NCBI GenBank assembly: GCA_016934855.1
Contig: JAFGSA010000046.1
Coordinates: 26,848 to 90,847, forward strand
From: Elusimicrobiota bacterium
GTDB taxonomy: Bacteria; CG03; SLGR01; JAFGSA01
Length of the DNA: 64,000 bases
Direction of reading: 5' to 3'
In this document: in pieces, positions 57,001 to 63,000 of the stretch
Numbering within the stretch: position 1 is the stretch's first letter
Layout: the number at the start of each line of letters is the position of its first letter
Program-made: the position numbers

Positions 57001-60000
57001 GTTCTTCCGCTTCGCTTCGGACAATGCGCCGATTAATCCCACGGCCAGAGGCCCCGCCATGAAAAGAGCGAATGTGTAATAGGTAAGCGCTCCCAGCCCG
57101 CAGCTGATTCCCAGGAGCACGCTCAGCCTGCGGTCTCTGAAAAAGCCAGATTTTATCAGCAGGTATACGCACATCATCGTAATACCCATAAGAGGATAAT
57201 CATAGCTGAAACACCTGTTATACAGATACGTCAGCGGGAACAGGAATACTATCACGGCCATAAAATACCCCGTGACCCTGTCCTTTACCGCTTTTCCCGT
57301 AAGAAACCCGAAGACCAGAAGCAGGCAGAACGATATGCCGTGAAGGACCATATTGACCGTAAGGCAGCTCCTGCCGAAAGCATAGAGGACGGCGCCGGAT
57401 AAAAATACGCAGGTCGGGGCATACCCCCACACCCCGGTCCACAGGGGCGTTATTGTATTGATATCCGCCGGATTTAGATTTTTTATAACCCCGTAATATT
57501 TAATCGGATGGTAATAATTAAAAAGCGAAGAGAAATTATATGGAGCGTTAGGCAGGGATTTCGAGACATGAACAAGGGTGGTCTCGTATAAAGCCATTAC
57601 CGCGAACACGATCGCCGCTGTTAATACGCCTTTTCTGATTATATCGCTCTTTTTTGCCAACTTTCCGCTCTATCTGCCCGGGCCTCCGAAAAACCCGGTC
57701 AGCCTTACGGTAAGGTCCAGGATGTCCTTTTCACCGTACTTACTGTGATTGGGCAGCATGATGACCTCTTCTTCCAGCCTGGATGCATTCTCAAAGACAG
57801 GGCCGGTCTCTTCATTAAACCCGCAGTTCTTCAGATATCCCTCCCTGGAATCTATCCCCCTGTCAAGAAGCTCTCTTCTCACTTTACTTTTTTCTTTTAC
57901 TTTCACTGCATAGTAAAGATATATGTTCATACAATCTTCTTCCCGGACGCTCTCTGCCGGAGAAACACCTTCAGCGCCGGCCAGCGCCGCATCCAGCATC
58001 CTGCTGTACGTTATCCTCTTCCTCACTATTTCATCGATCTTACCCAGCTGCATATAACCGACAAGGGCCTGGAAAGGAGTGATGCGCCTCCTGAATGTCT
58101 CGCTCGAGCCGGGATCATCCGTCCTCCCCTTTACCGCTCGGTCGACAAACCGCCCTATGCACCTGTTAAGGAAATACCATGGATAGAATGTAAAAGCGCT
58201 GAAAACCGCGGGAGACGTGAACAGGCCCGCCGCAAGACCGACCGCCGTGTTTTTCAGGACACTGAAGGCGGAAGTTCTTTTCATCCCGCCTGTTTCCGCC
58301 TTCGCGTATTCATACAGCTTTCTATCATTTGTCGCAAGGACGCCGCCCTGGAAGGTAGTTATGAGCTTACTGAAGCCGAAGCTGAAAAAGGAACCCAACC
58401 CGAAACTGCCGACCTTCCTTCCGCCGCATTCCGCTCCGAGCGCGTGTGCGCAGTCTTCGATGACGAAAAGGCCTTTCTCTGCCGCAACCTCTTCTATCCG
58501 CCCCATATCGCAGGGATTGCCGTAAGCATGGGTCGCCAGCACGGCCGCCGTATTTTCATTAATATTCTTCTCCAGTACGCCGTGATCCAGGTTCAGCGTC
58601 CTGTAATCGGCATCTATGAAACGCGGCACGAATCCGCATTCTTCAATAATGGACGGTATGGCGTAGAAATTATACGCCGATAGTATTATCTCGGGCCTGT
58701 ACTTGCCGGGGCATAATGTCCTCATGTACCCGAGGATCAGGTAGAAAGCGCATCGGGCCGAAGACACCGCCACCGCGTATCCCGTTCCTATATATCCGGC
58801 AAGAGCTTGCTCATATTTTGCGACGGCATCCTTCCCCGCGCGCCCTGATAAACATCCCTTTACGATCGACGCCGTGTCGCGGCGATCCAGGTAGAGGCCG
58901 ACAGTGTCGCTTACGAATCTCTTCACGACGGATGCGTTCTCATTTAATCCACCAGCTTTTTTTCTGTAATCAGCCCGAACAGGTTCCCGGCTATCAGGGA
59001 ATAACCCTTTATGCTCGGATGCCAGTTATCCGAATAAAATATCTCGCGCTCCCTCCCGCCGGATATATATTCTTCCGCCACCTTCTGGTTATCGCAGAAA
59101 TAGGTGCCGTTCTTCTGCGCTATACCTTGCGCGTACTCGTTGAACCAGCTCCTGAAATAATTACATAGAATGACATCCGCGTTTACCCTCCTGCTCTCTT
59201 TTATCATGTACTCGATGTCCTTGACGAACCTCTTCTTATATATAGCGCGCGCATCTATTATATTCTTGTCCCTTATATCGAATATCCTTCCGTATACGTT
59301 CTTCCTGTACATCCCCGCCAGAAACGCCCCGAGCTTGAATAATTTGGCTCTTTTCATAAGATAGAAGCTGTACGGGATCAGGCTGCTTTTTTCATTTTTA
59401 GCGACGTCCTCGTCTATTATTACATGATAATTATTGTGCCCGACGAGCAGTATGACAAGGTGCGGCCTGTAGTGATCGAGATATCCCCTGAAATTTTCCG
59501 CGATCTTGCTCACCGTCACGCCCAGTATCCCCAGTTTGTATACCCTGATATTCCTGTCCGGATAACGCTCCGACAGCATCTTTTCCAGGACCTTGGGAAA
59601 CGAATATCTTTCCTCCACTTCATGCCCCTGCACGGTGGATTCTCCGACGCATATTATGCGGTACGCCGAATCATCTACCAGGTCTCTGAACATGGGCGCC
59701 CTGGCACAGTAATAATAATACCCGGATTCGCAGATCCTCAGCGCGACTTCCACAGAGAGCAGCACGAGCAGGACCCGCACGACCGTAACGGCGTATTTTT
59801 TCCTGTCCGGAGCGGCCGTCACTTCAGGCTCCCGTAACCGGCAAGGTCTATCTCAAGGGCCCGTATCCTGTCCCTGAGCGAAGGTTCCCTGAGGGCGCCC
59901 AGCTCTGCTTCTCTTGCGTAAAATAACCTGTCTTCGTATTCTCCCGCATCAGCAGAGCCCGTATAACCCGGATGGCATACGATCTCGCTCGTGCCGTCAG

Positions 60001-63000
60001 GAAGAGAAGCGAATATATTGTTCAGCCTGTCCCCGGTCATCCTGCCGTATTCCCACATACCGAATATCCTGTCGGGAAAAGATATCCCTCCGGCCCGGAG
60101 GGCCTCCTTTTCCCTTCTCGCCAGGAATCTTATAATAGGATGCCCGATAAAGCAGCCTGCGCCGGCCGGCCGGCCCGCGCAGGAAGGGTTGGAAAGACTC
60201 CTTATCCCGGATATTCCGTACTCTTTCGAAAGCCGCATCACTATATCCAGTACCGCGGGTACCGCGTGCACGTTATGATGCGTATCGATATGGCCGGGAC
60301 GTATCCCGCTCGAGATGAGTTTCTCAGCCTGCGCCCTGAATTCCCTCTCTATTTCCGCCGTATCTATCATCCCGGTCATGAGCATATAAAAAAGCATGCA
60401 CTTGTTCCGCATGAATTTTCCCGTTCCCCGGGTGAGACAGGGGAGATCTTCCGCGGGCAGGACCGGTTTCCCGCAGGATATATTAAGATGTATGCCTATC
60501 CCGAGACCCGCGTTCTCCCCGGCAAGCCTCACCGCCCCGCCGAACGCAACCCCGTTGGCCAGGATGGTCGCACTTGTGAGTATTCCTTCCCTGTGCGCCT
60601 CTATTATACCGCGGTTTACCCCTTCCGTCAGCCCGAAATCGTCTCCGTTGATTATAACCCTCTTCACTTCTTTATCCTGTTCAGCTCGTCGGATACGGCC
60701 TTGTTATCGGGATCGAGCGCCAGGTATCTCTCGAAACACTCGGCCGCCCGCCCGATATCGTTGCGGGACCTGTAGTAATACCCCAGGTTCAGCCATTTAT
60801 GGTGATCTACGGAGGTATTAAGTCCCAGACCGATATCGACCCCCTGCGAAGCGGCGTATTTCGAGAACACTTCCCACCTTCTGAGCCTTTCCGGATAGGT
60901 ATTCGTCCCGTCCTTAGATTCCCAGTAAAGATTGTCGTCCGGATTCGGCACTATGCCGAATTCCTCCATATTCCTGCCCAGATAGCTGTTCGCTTCAACG
61001 ACACAGAATGAGAAACTCGGATACGCGGTATCGATATACCCGGCGTTCTCTTTCAGCAAAGCAAGGGTCATCTGAAAATCCTCTTCCGTTTCGCCGGGAA
61101 ACCCGAACATGAAATTAGCCTTTATAAGTATTCCCGCCTCGTGCGTCGCCTTGAGCACCATGCCCGCGTCTTTAACCTTGTACTTCTTTCTCATCAGGTC
61201 CAGTATCTTCTGAGACCCGGACTCTATGCCGTAAGTCAGCCTCAGACAGCCGGCTTTTTTCATCTTGCCGAGTATGGAAGCATCCATCTGGGGCCTTATC
61301 ACGGCATTGGCATGCCATCTCAATTCTTTCCCCGGCGGGTCAGCTATCATCATGTCGCAGAATTCTTCGAGCGCTTCCATATCCCAGTTGAAAAGCAGGT
61401 CCATGAACTCCACGTGTTCTATCTCCGGAGCATTGCGCAGATGAAATCTTATTTCCTCGTATATCCTTCTGCCGGACATGCAGCGGAATTTCTTCCAGTA
61501 GTTGGTGGCTCCGCAGAAAGCGCATTTCCAGGGGCATCCTCTGCTTGCCTGGAAAGTGAGGTGTTTTCCCAGCCAGCCGGGATTCTCGTATTTACTCAGC
61601 GGCATATCCGCAAAATCCATGAAAGGCAGGCTGTCCAGGTCCTTTACCGGTTCCCTCCCGGGCGTACTGACCAGTCGGCCGCCGCTGTCTTTGTACATTA
61701 TCCCGCCGCATACGGAAATATCGGCCCCCGCTGCAAGCAGTTTCACAAGCTCGGGGAATGTCCTCTCTCCTTCGCCGCAGACCAGGACATCGACGCTACC
61801 TGTATCCAGAAGCGATTTCGTCTCTTCATCCTGCGTCATCATGAACATGTGGCCGCCGAAGACTATTTTCGCGCGGCTTCGTTTTTTCCTGATAAGCCCG
61901 GCCAGTTTCAGGCTCGCGGCCCTGGACGCCGAATTGACAGATAACCCTATTATATCCGGCCGAAAGCCGAGTATATCCGCGATGTATCCATCTATAAACT
62001 TCGCGTTATCCGAGAAAAATCTTTCCACGAACTCGGCGTTGGACCACAACATGCTCTGCTCTATAGCCCAGGCATTATCGTATTTTTTCTGACGGCTGTT
62101 ATAGAGGTCGATGTTCATATCAAACGAGCGCACGTCACACCCGCCGGCCTTCAGGCAGCCCGACAGAAGAGACAGGGAAAAAGGAGGATCATAAACGCCC
62201 CAGACGGGGGCCTGCAGAAGAGCTATCCTGGGTTTTACCGCGGTTTCATTCATTTTCACAGACGATGAACATCGGACAGATACCCGCAGAGGATATCCCC
62301 TATGATCTTATGCCCCTTTTCGGAATAGTGTATGAAATCCCCCGGTTGTATCTGCATTTCGGCATCTTCGAGTACGGAAGAATCCATGTACTCGCGCAGA
62401 TCGAGCGATTCAATTTTTTCGGCGCCGCACATTTCTTTTATGACGGCGAATATCTCGTCATGCGCAGTCCGGTACTCTTCGGGAACCAGTACAGTCGGTA
62501 TTATCATCACCATGAGGTCTATGCCGTTGTCCATGCATATGTTCTTCAAGTCCACGAGATTCTTAATGTTATTCTTCATTATCATGTCATTATGCAAGTC
62601 GCGGCCTTTCGAATATTTATAAGTTACCGCGGCTGCGATCAGCCTTGCGACGGACGAATACCTGCACAGGGAAAAACTCAGAAGGTCTGTTTTCATCACG
62701 GAAGACGGGCGATAGGCCAGGCACCCTTTTTTCCCGATACGCAGCACCCTGAAACCGCGCGTATTGATATCATTGAAAGTCATTCCCGCTATCACCATAT
62801 CCGGCTCATACCCGACGCCTTTCTGCCCGAGATATTTAACGTATTCAACGAGGCTGTAGCCGCTGAATCCGGCGTTCCATACTTCATAGTCCTTTTTCCT
62901 TCCGGGGATGGCGCCGTTCAGCGTCTCCTCAAGTATCCCGGTATATCTTCTGCCGATCCGGACACCGTAGGCCGCTGTGACCGAATCTCCCAGAACCAGT

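What the first reader, a model, noticed from the sequence alone, without database searches (positions are those of the whole stretch)
57670..60667. Amino-sugar tailoring core: DegT aminotransferase + SGNH + YdjC deacetylase inside the long minus-strand operon
- **The genes.** 57670..58926 is a DegT-family aminotransferase, 58944..59822 is an anchored SGNH protein, and 59819..60667 is a YdjC/ChbG-family deacetylase. All are translationally coupled with 4-nt overlaps.
- **The chemistry.** DegT enzymes aminate 4-keto or 3-keto NDP-sugars. YdjC enzymes de-N-acetylate GlcNAc-type sugars (ChbG, and HpnK in hopanoid cyclitol-ether synthesis, where the next step is catalysed by the B12-rSAM HpnJ). The YdjC gene here sits directly next to a B12-rSAM (60664..62259).
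- **Inference.** This hints at a deacetylation step followed by a radical rearrangement or methylation of an amino sugar. A second DegT lies at 26750..27997 next to another rSAM pair.
Basis: partly seen in the sequence, partly recalled or inferred. Interest (0 to 1): 0.55.

Follow-up and report, generated by a model that had tools for sequence, protein, structure and literature searches.

The report
Amino-sugar module in radical-SAM glycan island
The three genes are real and do look like an amino-sugar tailoring unit, but they resemble the machinery that decorates bacterial outer-surface molecules via a lipid carrier, not hopanoid lipid synthesis, and they sit inside a very large, undescribed island packed with radical-SAM enzymes that recurs in several bacterial phyla.

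Summary
DegT (57670-58926), anchored SGNH (58944-59822) and YdjC (59819-60667) are intact, catalytically complete genes in a long minus-strand array beside a B12-radical-SAM. Only two of the junctions are 4-nt overlaps.

The hopanoid hint fails:
- The YdjC scores 194.8 against an HpnK cutoff of 232.6. True HpnKs, found beside HpnI/HpnJ, score 289-307.
- The YdjC never joins the HpnK clade (0/200 bootstraps).
- The adjacent rSAM scores 127 against an HpnJ cutoff of 577.6.

The YdjC's relatives are instead coupled to ArnC-like polyprenyl-phosphate glycosyltransferases in 58 of 83 loci, often with ArnT-like GT-C enzymes. This is the NaxD/LgmC arrangement used for lipid A amino-sugar decoration.

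The DegT belongs to a clade with a roughly 50-residue aromatic, basic helical insertion. That clade is specifically paired with a B12-rSAM directly upstream (20/27 loci, against 0/36 for other DegTs), next to GT2 and GT-C genes.

A second organism (L175) carries all the parts in one array. The window is part of an island with at least 24 rSAM genes, and related islands carry Wzm/Wzt-type polysaccharide exporters.

Best reading: an Arn/NaxD-like lipid-carrier amino-sugar module within a novel rSAM-rich surface-glycan tailoring system. The chemistry of the rSAMs and the acceptor are unknown.

The parts
60664..62259 (-). B12-binding radical SAM enzyme with a C-terminal TPR. It belongs to a well-conserved family that forms the core of the rSAM arrays.
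   Evidence: Pfam PF02310 + PF04055 + TPR. CxxxCxxC at C242/C246/C249 is invariant. No NCBIfam family reaches its cutoff: the best is a RiPP C-methyltransferase subfamily at 155 against 281.85, and HpnJ is 127 against 577.6. There are 406 homologs at E<1e-30, at 40-62% identity across four phyla.
59819..60667 (-). YdjC-superfamily de-N-acetylase. It has no TM segment, so it is cytoplasmic. It belongs to the ArnC-GT2-coupled (NaxD/LgmC-like by context) group and is not HpnK or ChbG.
   Evidence: Pfam YdjC at 210 bits. HpnK 194.8 < 232.6 and ChbG 157.4 < 227. Catalytic motifs are conserved.
58944..59822 (-). SGNH hydrolase or acyltransferase with an N-terminal membrane anchor; the catalytic domain is probably periplasmic.
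   Evidence: Pfam Lipase_GDSL_2 at 39.7 bits. TM-like segment at residues 9-33. Ser62, Asn130, Asp265 and His268 blocks are present.
57670..58926 (-). DegT-family PLP sugar aminotransferase, from a clade that carries a roughly 50-aa three-helix aromatic, basic insertion.
   Evidence: Pfam at 200.9 bits. K187 and D158 are invariant. AF2 model pLDDT 92.5, with insertion helices at 220-236, 239-256 and 260-269. The Foldseek top hits are sugar aminotransferases that lack the insertion. The clade is paired with a B12-rSAM.
55900..57660 (-). Polytopic GT-C (PMT_2/ArnT-like) glycosyltransferase; the proposed transferase that moves the lipid-linked sugar to a periplasmic acceptor.
   Evidence: PMT_2 only at E=0.0055. 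It is 33% identical over 519 aa to the paralog at 20512-22269, which passes PMT_2. It has 8 TM-like segments. The AF2 model is low-confidence, but all top-20 Foldseek hits are GT-C enzymes.
54499..55893 (-). B12-binding radical SAM enzyme.
   Evidence: Pfam. No NCBIfam family reaches its cutoff.
52944..54566 (-). B12-binding radical SAM enzyme.
   Evidence: Pfam.
52231..52968 (-). Small soluble GT2 of the polyprenyl-phosphate-sugar synthase type; the proposed maker of the lipid-linked sugar.
   Evidence: Pfam Glycos_transf_2 at 83 bits. The top four NCBIfam matches, and PpgS further down the list, are polyprenyl/dolichyl-phosphate glycosyltransferases (PgfS, DPhHxTase, AglJ, ArnC, PpgS), all below cutoff. 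No TM segment.
50835..52253 (-). B12-binding radical SAM enzyme.
   Evidence: Pfam.
49323..50828 (-). Anchored SGNH-TPR protein.
   Evidence: Pfam TPR plus weak GDSL. N-terminal TM segment.
62256..63314 (-). Anchored SGNH protein, upstream in the same array.
   Evidence: Pfam Lipase_GDSL_2 at 42.7 bits. TM segment at 17-39.
63319..63987 (-). SGNH protein. The listed ORF starts at 63987, only 13 bases from the window end, and the gene called at the matching position in L087 is 350 aa, so the true start probably lies beyond the window.
   Evidence: Weak GDSL hit. The gene called at the matching position in L087 is 350 aa.
26750..27997 (-). Second DegT paralog (30% identical to the focal one). 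It retains the canonical upstream B12-rSAM partner.
   Evidence: Pfam at 224.7 bits. It overlaps the rSAM at 27997-29502 by 1 nt. It aligns within the clade alignment A3 and has the insertion.
27997..29502 (-). B12-rSAM directly upstream of the second DegT (the conserved rSAM-to-DegT pair).
   Evidence: Pfam.
36592..37602 (+). LPG_synthase_TM 'flippase-like' membrane protein; a candidate flippase for the lipid-linked sugar.
   Evidence: Pfam at 152 bits. NCBIfam TIGR00374 flippase-like domain. The same family occurs in the related island L091.
12460..14391 (-). AsnB-type glutamine amidotransferase, a recurrent member of the YdjC cassette elsewhere.
   Evidence: Pfam Asn_synthase at 256 bits. 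AsnB sits beside YdjC-GT2 in L002, L004, L026, L028 and L175.

Best explanation
The DegT-SGNH-YdjC trio is an Arn/NaxD-like module that makes a modified amino sugar on a polyprenyl-phosphate lipid carrier and delivers it to a cell-envelope glycoconjugate. It operates inside a much larger island whose many radical SAM enzymes tailor the same class of surface glycan.

Proposed steps (all inferred; none shown biochemically):
1. The small soluble GT2 (52231-52968) loads a HexNAc-type sugar onto polyprenyl phosphate at the cytoplasmic face.
2. The cytoplasmic YdjC removes the N-acetyl group, as NaxD does on undecaprenyl-P-GalNAc. This exposes a free amine.
3. A B12-radical-SAM partner and the DegT aminotransferase remodel the sugar further. 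The radical step would either create a keto group for transamination or C-methylate next to the amine. The DegT's clade-specific aromatic, basic helical insertion may help it work at the membrane on a lipid-linked substrate rather than on a soluble nucleotide sugar.
4. The lipid-linked sugar is flipped across the membrane.
5. The GT-C enzyme (55900-57660) transfers it to a periplasmic acceptor, most likely LPS or another surface polysaccharide.
6. The anchored SGNH enzymes add or remove O-acyl groups in the periplasm.
For: Catalytic competence of all three focal enzymes.

Topology: YdjC, DegT, GT2 and the rSAMs have no TM segment. All 8 full-length SGNH paralogs carry one N-terminal TM-like segment; the two ORFs at the window end differ (62256-63314 also has a second segment at 259-277, and the truncated 63319-63987 has none at its N-terminus). 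The GT-Cs are polytopic.

YdjC relatives:
- 62 of 83 loci carry an ArnC-like GT2, and 58 have it directly adjacent on the same strand.
- That GT2 aligns full-length to the ArnC model at 196-216 bits.
- A GT-C is present in 12 loci. An ArnT-model match was shown for one of them, the L004 GT-C at 89.7 bits against a 567 cutoff.

Nearest YdjC relatives: L002, L026, L028 and L175 sit in a B12-rSAM|YdjC|GT2|AsnB|MTase cassette, followed by a PMT gene in L002 and L175.

Published paradigm: NaxD is a YdjC-superfamily deacetylase acting on undecaprenyl-P-GalNAc before transfer to lipid A (PMC11279074). lgmA, lgmB and lgmC are required for GlcN on Bordetella lipid A (PMC4993483).

DegT clade:
- A B12-rSAM lies directly upstream in 20/27 loci, against 0/36 for more distant DegTs.
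- Minimal loci still carry a GT2 plus a GT-C (PMT_2 or GT87).
- Large islands in three other sources have the same parts list.

Second organism: L175 carries orthologs of the YdjC (42.5%), rSAM-TPR (47%) and DegT (45%) together with SGNH, GT2, PMT and AsnB in one co-directional array.

Export markers: related rSAM arrays carry Wzm/Wzt-type exporters, Wzt_C, a multi-GT polymerase-like protein and GT9.

Precedent: a PLP aminotransferase and a B12-rSAM act on an already-attached sugar in gentamicin A2 to X2 biosynthesis (PMC4340712).
Against: - No biochemical data exist for any member.
- In the window the YdjC is not adjacent to an ArnC-like GT2. The window's GT2s are short (235-250 aa), lack the C-terminal TM hairpin of ArnC, and match polyprenyl-P GT models only below cutoff.
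- The focal GT-C fails the PMT_2 gathering score, and its structure model is poor (pLDDT 53.8).
- I could not compare the YdjC directly with NaxD or LgmC sequences.
- No lipid A, LPS-core or Wzm/Wzt genes occur in the window itself, so the acceptor is unknown.
- No nucleotide-sugar dehydratase or dehydrogenase is present to supply a keto sugar. The DegT substrate therefore rests on an unproven radical step.
- The membrane role of the DegT insertion is inferred from composition only.
- Support for the exact YdjC subclade is weak (53/200 and 96/200).
- SPASM-type rSAMs and TPR fusions upstream also fit peptide or protein substrates.
Confidence: 0.5

Rival explanations
1. Hopanoid side-chain pathway. 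YdjC would be HpnK, deacetylating bacteriohopanetetrol-GlcNAc. The adjacent B12-rSAM would be HpnJ, contracting the glucosamine ring to a cyclitol ether.
For: The best NCBIfam match of the YdjC is HpnK, full length, at 194.8 bits. HpnJ is among the top sub-threshold matches of several window rSAMs. The HpnI/K/J chemistry is documented (PMC13459092).
Against: - The YdjC is below the HpnK cutoff of 232.6, while true HpnKs beside HpnI/HpnJ score 289-307.
- It joins the HpnK clade in 0/200 bootstraps, and is 31-33% identical to HpnK against 38-44% to the ArnC-coupled clade.
- Annotated Burkholderia hpnK is 30% identical.
- The adjacent rSAM scores 127 against 577.6. None of the 17 window rSAMs exceeds 33% identity to a true HpnJ that itself scores 718.
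- No HpnI, HpnH, HpnG or SHC was found in the 64 kb window or in the 10 kb flank.
- HpnI and HpnJ are reported only in SHC/HpnH genomes, and the HpnK model is known to give spurious hits (10.1101/2025.07.29.667474).
Confidence: 0.03
2. Works like HpnIJK or calditol synthase, but on a different membrane lipid. A GT2 would put GlcNAc on a non-hopanoid lipid, YdjC would deacetylate it, and B12-rSAMs would rearrange or methylate the head group. The product would be an unusual aminoglycolipid that stays in the membrane, rather than a carrier-linked donor.
For: The same enzyme types are present (GT2, YdjC, B12-rSAM). The rSAMs are as close to HpnJ as to any methylase. rSAM ring contraction of lipid-linked sugars has precedent in HpnJ and Cds (PMC13459092). 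The DegT insertion suggests a lipidic substrate.
Against: It does not explain why GT-C transferases, which use lipid-phosphate sugar donors, are always present. It also does not explain the ArnC-like partner of the YdjC clade or the Wzm/Wzt exporters in related arrays.
Confidence: 0.12
3. Peptide or protein maturation island. The B12-rSAMs (C-methyltransferases) and SPASM rSAMs would modify a ribosomal peptide or secreted protein. The GT2 and PMT-type GT-C would O-glycosylate it, with DegT and YdjC supplying the amino sugar.
For: The best NCBIfam match of the rSAM at 60664 is a RiPP C-methyltransferase subfamily, at 155 bits and below cutoff. At least seven SPASM-type rSAMs lie upstream. TPR fusions occur on rSAMs and SGNHs. 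The PMT family includes protein O-mannosyltransferases (Pfam names).
Against: No precursor-like small ORF, leader peptidase or RiPP transporter was found. Minimal versions contain only rSAM + DegT + GT2 + GT-C. Related arrays carry polysaccharide machinery: Wzt_C, a multi-GT protein and GT9. All RiPP-model scores are far below cutoff.
Confidence: 0.12
4. Soluble secondary-metabolite (aminoglycoside or aminocyclitol-like) biosynthesis. DegT would act as an inosose or keto-sugar aminotransferase, the B12-rSAMs as GenK/GenD1-type methylases or an AprD4-type dehydratase, and YdjC as the N-deacetylase of a pseudo-oligosaccharide.
For: The top sequence hit of the DegT in the PDB is a glutamine:scyllo-inosose transaminase (7b0d), and BtrR-type enzymes are also hit. 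There are sub-threshold AprD4 matches. The gentamicin pathway combines a transaminase with B12-rSAM methylases (PMC4340712).
Against: There is no inosose or 2-deoxy-scyllo-inosose synthase, and no soluble GT1-type glycosyltransferase in the window. Membrane GT-Cs, anchored periplasmic SGNHs and a flippase-like protein dominate. The system is distributed in small-genome uncultured lineages, with LPS-type neighbours.
Confidence: 0.07
5. Catabolic ChbG-type chitooligosaccharide deacetylase that happens to lie in the array.
For: YdjC family. The N-terminal half aligns to ChbG-type structures 2i5i and 7vi8. The ChbG model scores 157.4 bits.
Against: The score is below the ChbG cutoff of 227, and only the N-terminal half matches. 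There are no chb or PTS genes. It shares 4-nt overlaps with both neighbours. An ortholog is embedded in the same kind of island in L175. It is 30-31% identical to annotated carbohydrate deacetylases, against 38-44% to the ArnC-coupled clade.
Confidence: 0.02

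Closest known systems
NaxD (Francisella, Acinetobacter) and LgmC (Bordetella): lipid A amino-sugar pathways built from an ArnC-like GT2, a YdjC deacetylase and an ArnT-like GT-C
   Same: A YdjC-superfamily deacetylase is genetically associated with a polyprenyl-phosphate GT2 and a GT-C transferase. 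The deacetylase is cytoplasmic and the transferase is in the membrane. In 58 of 83 loci the YdjC's relatives are directly coupled to an ArnC-like GT2.
   Different: - In the window the YdjC is flanked by a B12-rSAM and an SGNH rather than by the GT2.
- The GT2s are short and lack the TM hairpin.
- A DegT and many rSAMs are added.
- The acceptor is unknown.
- No direct sequence comparison with NaxD or LgmC was possible.
Arn pathway (ArnB, ArnC, ArnD, ArnT) for L-Ara4N on lipid A
   Same: The logic and parts list match: a DegT-family aminotransferase (ArnB-like fold, Foldseek hits 8sng, 4oca and 1mdo), a polyprenyl-P GT2, a de-N-acylase acting on the carrier-linked sugar, and a GT-C transferase.
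   Different: There is no ArnA-type dehydrogenase/decarboxylase or formyltransferase. The de-acylase is a YdjC, not an ArnD. The DegT scores 87.5 against an ArnB cutoff of 631 and carries a 50-aa insertion. B12-rSAMs replace the nucleotide-sugar redox steps (inferred).
HpnI, HpnK and HpnJ (bacteriohopanetetrol glucosamine to cyclitol ether)
   Same: A GT2-family glycosyltransferase, a YdjC deacetylase and a B12-domain rSAM occur in one locus. The substrate sugar is lipid-linked.
   Different: The YdjC and rSAM both fail the HpnK and HpnJ models and fall outside those clades. No HpnI, HpnH or SHC was seen. GT-C, DegT and SGNH have no counterpart in hpn clusters.
Gentamicin GenD2/GenS2/GenN/GenD1 and related aminoglycoside tailoring (BtrN/BtrS, AprD4, DesI/DesII; the last three are from my own knowledge)
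   Same: A PLP sugar aminotransferase is combined with radical-SAM (including B12-dependent) chemistry on a sugar ring that is already glycosidically attached (PMC4340712).
   Different: Those are soluble antibiotic pathways in Actinobacteria that use NAD-dependent oxidases and GT1-type transferases. Here the enzymes sit among membrane GT-C and periplasmic SGNH proteins, and no family cutoff is reached.
rSAM-rich neighbourhoods of Elusimicrobia nitrogenase paralogs (Meheust et al., 10.1101/765248)
   Same: Same phylum. Clusters of up to 13 radical SAM genes, several with B12-binding domains, were noted.
   Different: No NifH, NifD or NifK-like genes occur in this window or flank. That paper proposed tetrapyrrole or cofactor chemistry, and a text search of it found no mention of glycosyltransferases or of lipopolysaccharide/LPS.

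Membership tests
HpnK (NCBIfam TIGR03473) | Whole-protein score at or above the curated cutoff of 232.6 bits | tested here: not met
   194.8 bits. Controls beside HpnI/HpnJ score 307.4, 289.3 and 288.6. The ArnC-coupled paralog in the same genome scores 199.7.
HpnK (NCBIfam TIGR03473) | Groups phylogenetically with YdjC genes that sit beside HpnI/HpnJ | tested here: not met
   The HpnK-context clade is recovered in 200/200 bootstraps and the window protein joins it in 0/200. Identity is 31-33% against 38-44%.
HpnK (NCBIfam TIGR03473) | Genomic association with HpnI, HpnJ, HpnH and squalene-hopene cyclase | tested here: not met
   None was found in the 64 kb window or the 10 kb upstream flank. 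The rest of the genome could not be searched.
HpnJ (NCBIfam TIGR03471) | Score at or above 577.6 bits, or close similarity to a bona fide HpnJ | tested here: not met
   The adjacent rSAM scores 127.1 bits. All 17 window B12-rSAMs are 23-33% identical to the L004 HpnJ, which itself scores 718.
YdjC/ChbG superfamily (Pfam PF04794) | Full-length domain match and a conserved Asp/His metal-binding and catalytic set | tested here: met
   210.3 bits against 29.7, covering positions 1-265 of 266. D9, D10, H60, H126, D128 and H232 are invariant and H130 and H132 nearly invariant (90% or more) in alignment A2. The protein aligns to 2i5i and 7vi8.
ChbG chitin disaccharide deacetylase (NCBIfam NF002559) | Score at or above 227 bits | tested here: not met
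   157.4 bits, and only the N-terminal half matches.
NaxD/LgmC-type carrier-linked HexNAc deacetylase | YdjC gene linked to an ArnC-like polyprenyl-phosphate GT2 | tested here: inconclusive
   Met for the clade: 58 of 83 relatives have the GT2 directly adjacent, as do L002, L026, L028 and L175. In the window the nearest GT2 is about 7 kb downstream in the same array and is of a short, TM-less type.
NaxD/LgmC-type carrier-linked HexNAc deacetylase | Linked to an ArnT-like GT-C transferase | tested here: met
   A GT-C lies at 55900-57660, two genes downstream, and five more are in the window. A GT-C also accompanies relatives in 12 loci.
NaxD/LgmC-type carrier-linked HexNAc deacetylase | Sequence orthology to NaxD or LgmC, and activity on undecaprenyl-P-HexNAc | not testable with these tools
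   No NaxD or LgmC sequence or model was available in any library reached. The primary paper is not held.
DegT/DnrJ/EryC1/StrS aminotransferases (Pfam PF01041) | Domain match, fold, and Schiff-base lysine (as opposed to the His of ColD/E1 dehydratases) | tested here: met
   200.9 bits. K187 aligns to the lysine of 7b0m and is invariant in the clade. Foldseek gives E of about 1e-29 to sugar aminotransferases.
Specific sugar aminotransferase equivalogs (PseC, LegC, ArnB, DesI, WecE, RfbH) | Score at or above each curated cutoff | tested here: not met
   The best is PseC at 136.8 against 423.5. ArnB scores 87.5 against 631 and DesI 103.7 against 650.
SGNH/GDSL hydrolases (Pfam PF13472) | Domain match and catalytic blocks I, III and V | tested here: met
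   39.7 bits against 32.9. GES62, GHN130 and D265xxH268 are present.
GT-C glycosyltransferases (PMT_2/ArnT-like), for 55900-57660 | Pfam PMT_2 gathering score; polytopic GT-C fold | tested here: inconclusive
   PMT_2 scores 17.4 against 26.1. The protein is 33% identical over 519 aa to a paralog that passes. All top-20 Foldseek hits are GT-C, but the model pLDDT is 53.8 and TM-scores are 0.3-0.36.
Class B (B12-binding domain) radical SAM enzymes, for 60664-62259 | N-terminal B12-binding domain plus a radical SAM core with CxxxCxxC | tested here: met
   PF02310 at 42.4 bits and PF04055 at 66.5 bits. C242, C246 and C249 are invariant. Cobalamin use itself was not testable.

The most novel reading that the evidence does not exclude
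The window is part of a previously undescribed, multi-phylum system (Elusimicrobia, Endomicrobia, Omnitrophica, Aminicenantes, soil Acidobacteria-like contigs). In this system, arrays of up to about two dozen radical SAM enzymes (B12-type and SPASM-type) tailor lipid-linked sugars or an exported surface polysaccharide.

Within it, a dedicated clade of DegT aminotransferases carries a membrane-interface insertion and is hard-wired to a B12-rSAM partner. Together they would install amino groups (and perhaps C-methyl branches) directly on polyprenyl-phosphate sugars, bypassing the usual nucleotide-sugar dehydratase route. The YdjC would supply a second free amine.

The product would be a heavily radical-modified, cationic surface glycan of a kind not yet seen.
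Probability: 0.3. Interest if true: 0.8.

Novelty: new variant of a known kind. Interest (0 to 1): 0.6.

Why it matters
If the reading is right, the familiar Arn/NaxD strategy for putting positively charged amino sugars on the cell surface has a radical-SAM-assisted variant in uncultured anaerobic lineages. Surface glycans could then be a major and so far unrecognised substrate class for B12-dependent and SPASM radical SAM enzymes.

The conserved B12-rSAM to DegT gene pair gives enzymologists a compact two-enzyme system to test for new sugar chemistry.

The work also provides a practical annotation rule. YdjC proteins scoring about 190-220 bits on the HpnK model and coupled to ArnC-like GT2s are not hopanoid genes. 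This affects the use of 'HpnK' annotations as hopanoid markers in metagenomes.

Tried and rejected
- Hopanoid link. Rejected on model scores, in-genome controls, a bootstrapped tree and context.
- One-call test of all rSAMs against HpnJ. I wrongly included the true HpnJ in the alignment, so the summary E-value was uninformative. I replaced it with direct blastp.
- First bootstrap attempt timed out. I repeated it with 26 taxa.
The search for shc and hpnH in the rest of the genome was therefore impossible. Look-ups by exact protein returned only short Logan contigs.
- The primary NaxD paper is not held, and no NaxD or LgmC sequence was available.
- Rfam scan of the window: no hits, so no cobalamin or SAM riboswitch.
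- Small-ORF search in the two large gaps: no convincing precursor peptide.
- Promoter and terminator scans: at background level, uninformative.
- Pfam at E<=1 for the unknown proteins at 614-2023 and 16868-18565: nothing. The latter was later linked to PMT_2 by blastp.
- NCBIfam on the DegT-partner rSAMs: no family reached even a fifth of its cutoff for the B12 types, so methylase and dehydratase chemistry cannot be told apart.
- GT-C structure prediction from six paralogs: low confidence. A profile search of the PDB found nothing.
- Literature searches for B12-rSAM with PMT_2, ArnT, Omnitrophota or O-antigen found no description of such islands.

Full report
**1. Observation**

Pfam confirms the domain calls:
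- 57670-58926 is a DegT/DnrJ/EryC1 aminotransferase (E=4.6e-59).
- 58944-59822 is an SGNH/GDSL protein (39.7 bits against a cutoff of 32.9).
- 59819-60667 is a full-length YdjC protein (E=6.1e-62).
- 60664-62259 has a B12-binding domain, a radical SAM domain and a C-terminal TPR.

The enzymes look functional.
- The YdjC keeps its Asp/His set, aligned to the ChbG-type structures 2i5i and 7vi8.
- The DegT keeps the Schiff-base lysine K187 and Asp158. It is therefore an aminotransferase and not a ColD/E1-type dehydratase.
- The SGNH has Ser62, Asn130, Asp265 and His268 and one N-terminal hydrophobic anchor.

The second DegT and its rSAM pair are also real.

One detail is wrong. Only the rSAM/YdjC and YdjC/SGNH junctions are GTGA overlaps. 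SGNH to DegT has a 17-nt spacer and DegT to the next gene a 9-nt spacer.

**2. Surroundings**

The whole 64-kb window is one island of repeated enzyme types:
- 17 B12-rSAMs and one plain rSAM.
- Six GT-C (PMT_2-like) membrane transferases.
- Four small soluble GT2s.
- Ten SGNH or SGNH-TPR proteins. The eight full-length ones each have a single N-terminal anchor; 62256-63314 has an additional TM-like segment, and the truncated 63319-63987 shows none at its N-terminus.
- Two DegTs, one YdjC, one AsnB and one flippase-like LPG_synthase_TM protein.

The paralogs are only 22-47% identical, so this is old functional diversification and not recent duplication.

A Logan contig that overlaps the window end shows the same minus-strand array continuing upstream with at least seven more rSAMs, SPASM-type and some fused to TPR. 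That gives at least 24 rSAM genes in about 75 kb.

The source is an Elusimicrobia MAG, on a 172-kb contig.

**3. Testing the hopanoid hint**

The YdjC's best NCBIfam match is HpnK, but at 194.8 bits against a cutoff of 232.6. The adjacent rSAM scores 127 against an HpnJ cutoff of 577.6.

A scan of species-representative genomes with a YdjC alignment gave 80 loci, mostly Acidobacteriota. Three of them (L017, L019, L041) contain two YdjC paralogs.
- One paralog lies beside HpnI (and HpnJ in L017) and scores 289-307 bits on the HpnK model.
- The other paralog is the one that resembles ours. The one scored (L017) reaches 199.7 bits, and in L019 and L041 it is coupled to an ArnC-like GT2.

These are in-genome controls showing that the model separates the two paralogs.

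The window protein is 31-33% identical to the true HpnKs and 38-44% identical to the other group. In 200 bootstrap replicates the HpnK clade was always recovered and never included the window protein. PGAP-annotated hpnK genes on Burkholderia and Caballeronia replicons are about 30% identical, no better than ChbG-type carbohydrate deacetylases.

A bona fide HpnJ (L004, 718 bits) is 23-33% identical to every one of the 17 window B12-rSAMs. That is the background level between any two such enzymes, and the YdjC-adjacent one ranks tenth.

Published surveys find HpnI and HpnJ only in genomes with SHC and HpnH, and warn that the HpnK model produces spurious hits (10.1101/2025.07.29.667474).

The hopanoid assignment is therefore rejected at the family level. 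Whether the genome has shc could not be checked.

**4. What the YdjC clade travels with**

Among 83 loci holding the closest relatives:
- 62 carry an ArnC-like GT2, and in 58 it is directly adjacent on the same strand.
- Only two have an HpnJ within 10 kb.
- A GT-C occurs in 12 and AsnB in 7.

Those GT2s align end to end with the ArnC model (196-216 bits, below cutoff) and are about 320-340 aa long.

This is the gene logic of the published NaxD and LgmC systems. A YdjC-superfamily enzyme deacetylates undecaprenyl-phosphate-GalNAc (or GlcNAc) made by an ArnC-like GT2, and an ArnT-like GT-C then transfers the amino sugar to lipid A (PMC11279074; PMC4993483; the family assignments of LgmA-C are from my own knowledge).

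The nearest relatives of the window YdjC (L002 at 44%, L175 at 42.5%, L028, L026) sit in a cassette of B12-rSAM|YdjC|ArnC-like GT2|AsnB|methyltransferase, followed by a PMT gene in L002 and L175. Bootstrap support for that exact subclade is weak, at 53/200 and 96/200.

**5. The DegT**

It has only two close relatives (45%). Identity then drops to 36% or less, in Omnitrophica, archaeal and other MAGs.

The clade shares a roughly 50-residue insertion between the large and small domains. A confident AlphaFold model (pLDDT 92.5) shows it as three helices at 220-269. The best structural matches are perosamine synthase, PseC, DesI, ArnB and related sugar aminotransferases. They cover the core but not the insertion: TM-scores are 0.72-0.77 normalised by query and mostly 0.76-0.86 by target, and the one 421-aa E1 dehydrase hit gives 0.77 on both. 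The insertion is aromatic-rich and net basic across the clade. That fits an interfacial or lipid-binding element, but this is an inference.

Context is the stronger evidence.
- Three independent islands holding clade members have the same parts list: many B12-rSAMs, SPASM rSAMs, PMT_2, a small GT2, and in some SGNH, AsnB, a methyltransferase and LPG_synthase_TM.
- A metagenome scan gave 80 DegT loci. Among those scoring at least 160 bits to the window DegTs and with enough upstream sequence, 20 of 27 have a B12-rSAM directly upstream on the same strand. Among more distant DegTs the figure is 0 of 36.
- Even the short soil loci carry a GT-C (PMT_2 or GT87) and a polyprenyl-P-type GT2 beside the pair.
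- In the window, the second DegT keeps this pair, with a 1-nt overlap with the rSAM at 27997-29502.
- In the focal copy, the YdjC and SGNH genes lie between the rSAM-TPR and the DegT.

The partner rSAMs match no characterised family. HpnJ, BchE and AprD4 reach a fifth or less of their cutoffs. Methylation, dehydration and oxidation cannot be told apart.

**6. The rSAM next to the YdjC**

It belongs to a large, well-conserved family: 406 hits at E<1e-30, at 40-62% identity in Elusimicrobia, Endomicrobia, Omnitrophica and 'Patescibacteria'. It is often fused to a second SPASM rSAM, giving proteins of about 924 aa.

Its neighbourhoods are extraordinarily rSAM-dense, with about 11-17 rSAM genes in 21 kb, plus SGNH-TPR genes. 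One has an ABC-2 (Wzm/Wzt-like) exporter and a PMT_2. Another has Wzt with a Wzt_C domain, a 1739-aa multi-glycosyltransferase and a GT9. None has a YdjC beside the rSAM-TPR.

The YdjC-rSAM adjacency that prompted the HpnK/HpnJ analogy is therefore specific to this window.

Even so, the parts do belong together. The contig L175 carries, in one co-directional array:

PMT_2 | B12-rSAM | YdjC | ArnC-like GT2 | AsnB | MTase | PMT_2 | rSAM-TPR (47%) | rSAM | rSAM-SPASM | SGNH | SGNH | B12-rSAM | DegT (45%) | B12-rSAM | PMT | GT2

I predicted this arrangement from the L002 cassette order before looking it up.

**7. Mechanism proposed**

All steps are inferred.
1. A soluble polyprenyl-phosphate-type GT2 loads a HexNAc onto the lipid carrier.
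2. The cytoplasmic YdjC de-N-acetylates it, as NaxD does.
3. A B12-rSAM and the DegT add further chemistry on the ring. This would be keto formation followed by transamination, or C-methylation beside the amine. Precedents are gentamicin GenS2/GenD1 (PMC4340712) and, from my own knowledge, BtrN/BtrS, DesI/DesII and AprD4.
4. The product is flipped.
5. The GT-C at 55900-57660 transfers it to a periplasmic acceptor, most plausibly LPS or an ABC-exported polysaccharide.
6. Anchored SGNH enzymes handle O-acyl groups.

The GT-C call for 55900-57660 rests on three things: 33% identity to a PMT_2-positive paralog, eight TM segments, and a low-confidence model whose top 20 fold hits are all GT-C enzymes.

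Weak points:
- There is no ArnC-type GT2 adjacent to the YdjC in the window.
- There is no direct comparison with NaxD.
- There are no LPS genes in the window.
- The rSAM chemistry is unknown.
- SPASM rSAMs and TPR fusions would also suit a peptide substrate, although no precursor-like ORF was found.

**8. Novelty and verdict**

- The trio itself is a new variant of a known kind: an Arn/NaxD-type carrier-linked amino-sugar pathway.
- The setting is not described in any paper I could find. That setting includes the conserved B12-rSAM to DegT pair, the DegT insertion clade, and islands with two dozen rSAMs linked to surface-glycan machinery across several phyla.
- The only related note is of rSAM-rich regions near nitrogenase paralogs in Elusimicrobia, which were interpreted as cofactor chemistry.
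Its general 'amino-sugar tailoring' reading is supported, and its hopanoid analogy is not.

Noticed in passing
window 1-64000 and L087:1-10000 (beyond window end): The island holds 17 B12-rSAMs and 1 plain rSAM in the window. At least 7 more SPASM-type rSAMs, some fused to TPR, lie immediately upstream of the window end in the same array. That is at least 24 rSAM genes in about 75 kb.
   Followed up: partly
window 60664-62259; proteins P0248-P0340: The rSAM-TPR family is 40-62% conserved across Elusimicrobia, Endomicrobia, Omnitrophica and 'Patescibacteria'. In many genomes it is fused with a second SPASM radical SAM domain into proteins of about 924 aa.
   Followed up: partly
window 16868-18565 (-): This 565-aa polytopic protein has no Pfam or NCBIfam hit. 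It is nevertheless a distant PMT_2 homolog: 23-26% identity over more than 520 aa to the L175 PMT_2 genes, E 1e-25 to 1e-35. It is a sixth GT-C in the window.
   Followed up: partly
window 9221-10672, 44769-46214, 25242-26753 (-): These SGNH-TPR proteins keep catalytic block I (GES/GDS), but no DxxH block V was found. Pfam matches only the N-terminal half of the SGNH profile, so the TPR region may replace or split the C-terminal half. They may not be conventional hydrolases.
   Followed up: no
L017, L019, L041, L004 (Acidobacteriota): These genomes carry two YdjC paralogs: a true HpnK beside HpnI/HpnJ, and one coupled to an ArnC-like GT2. In L004, true HpnI and HpnJ sit next to the ArnC-coupled YdjC (218.8 bits, just under the HpnK cutoff), and no separate HpnK is visible in the 12 kb. 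That YdjC may serve both roles, or the HpnK may lie elsewhere.
   Followed up: partly
window 48935-49336 (-): A 133-aa ORF with no annotation occupies the only large intergenic gap (459 bp) of the long minus-strand array. It lies between a plain rSAM and an SGNH-TPR gene.
   Followed up: no
L102:8564-9886: One DegT-clade member is preceded by a MiaB/RimO-like methylthiotransferase-type rSAM (227.6 bits against a cutoff of 251) instead of a B12-rSAM. The radical partner of this DegT clade is therefore not always of the B12 class.
   Followed up: no
window 3863-4927 (+): This 354-aa protein has only weak PP-loop ATPase-like matches (DUF7411 E=2e-4, QueC, tRNA_Me_trans N-terminal motif). It is an unclassified adenylating-type enzyme sitting among the rSAMs.
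   Followed up: no
window 614-2023 (-): This 469-aa protein has about nine TM-like segments and no family match even at E<=1. It could be a flippase, polymerase or ligase-type membrane protein of the island.
   Followed up: no
L175:3903-4583: The YdjC ortholog in the second island is only 226 aa. It ends at the conserved 'LPDG' region and has Glu in place of the first His of the HHxxH-like motif ('DTEKHIH'). It may be truncated or degenerate, or the contig may have a frameshift.
   Followed up: no
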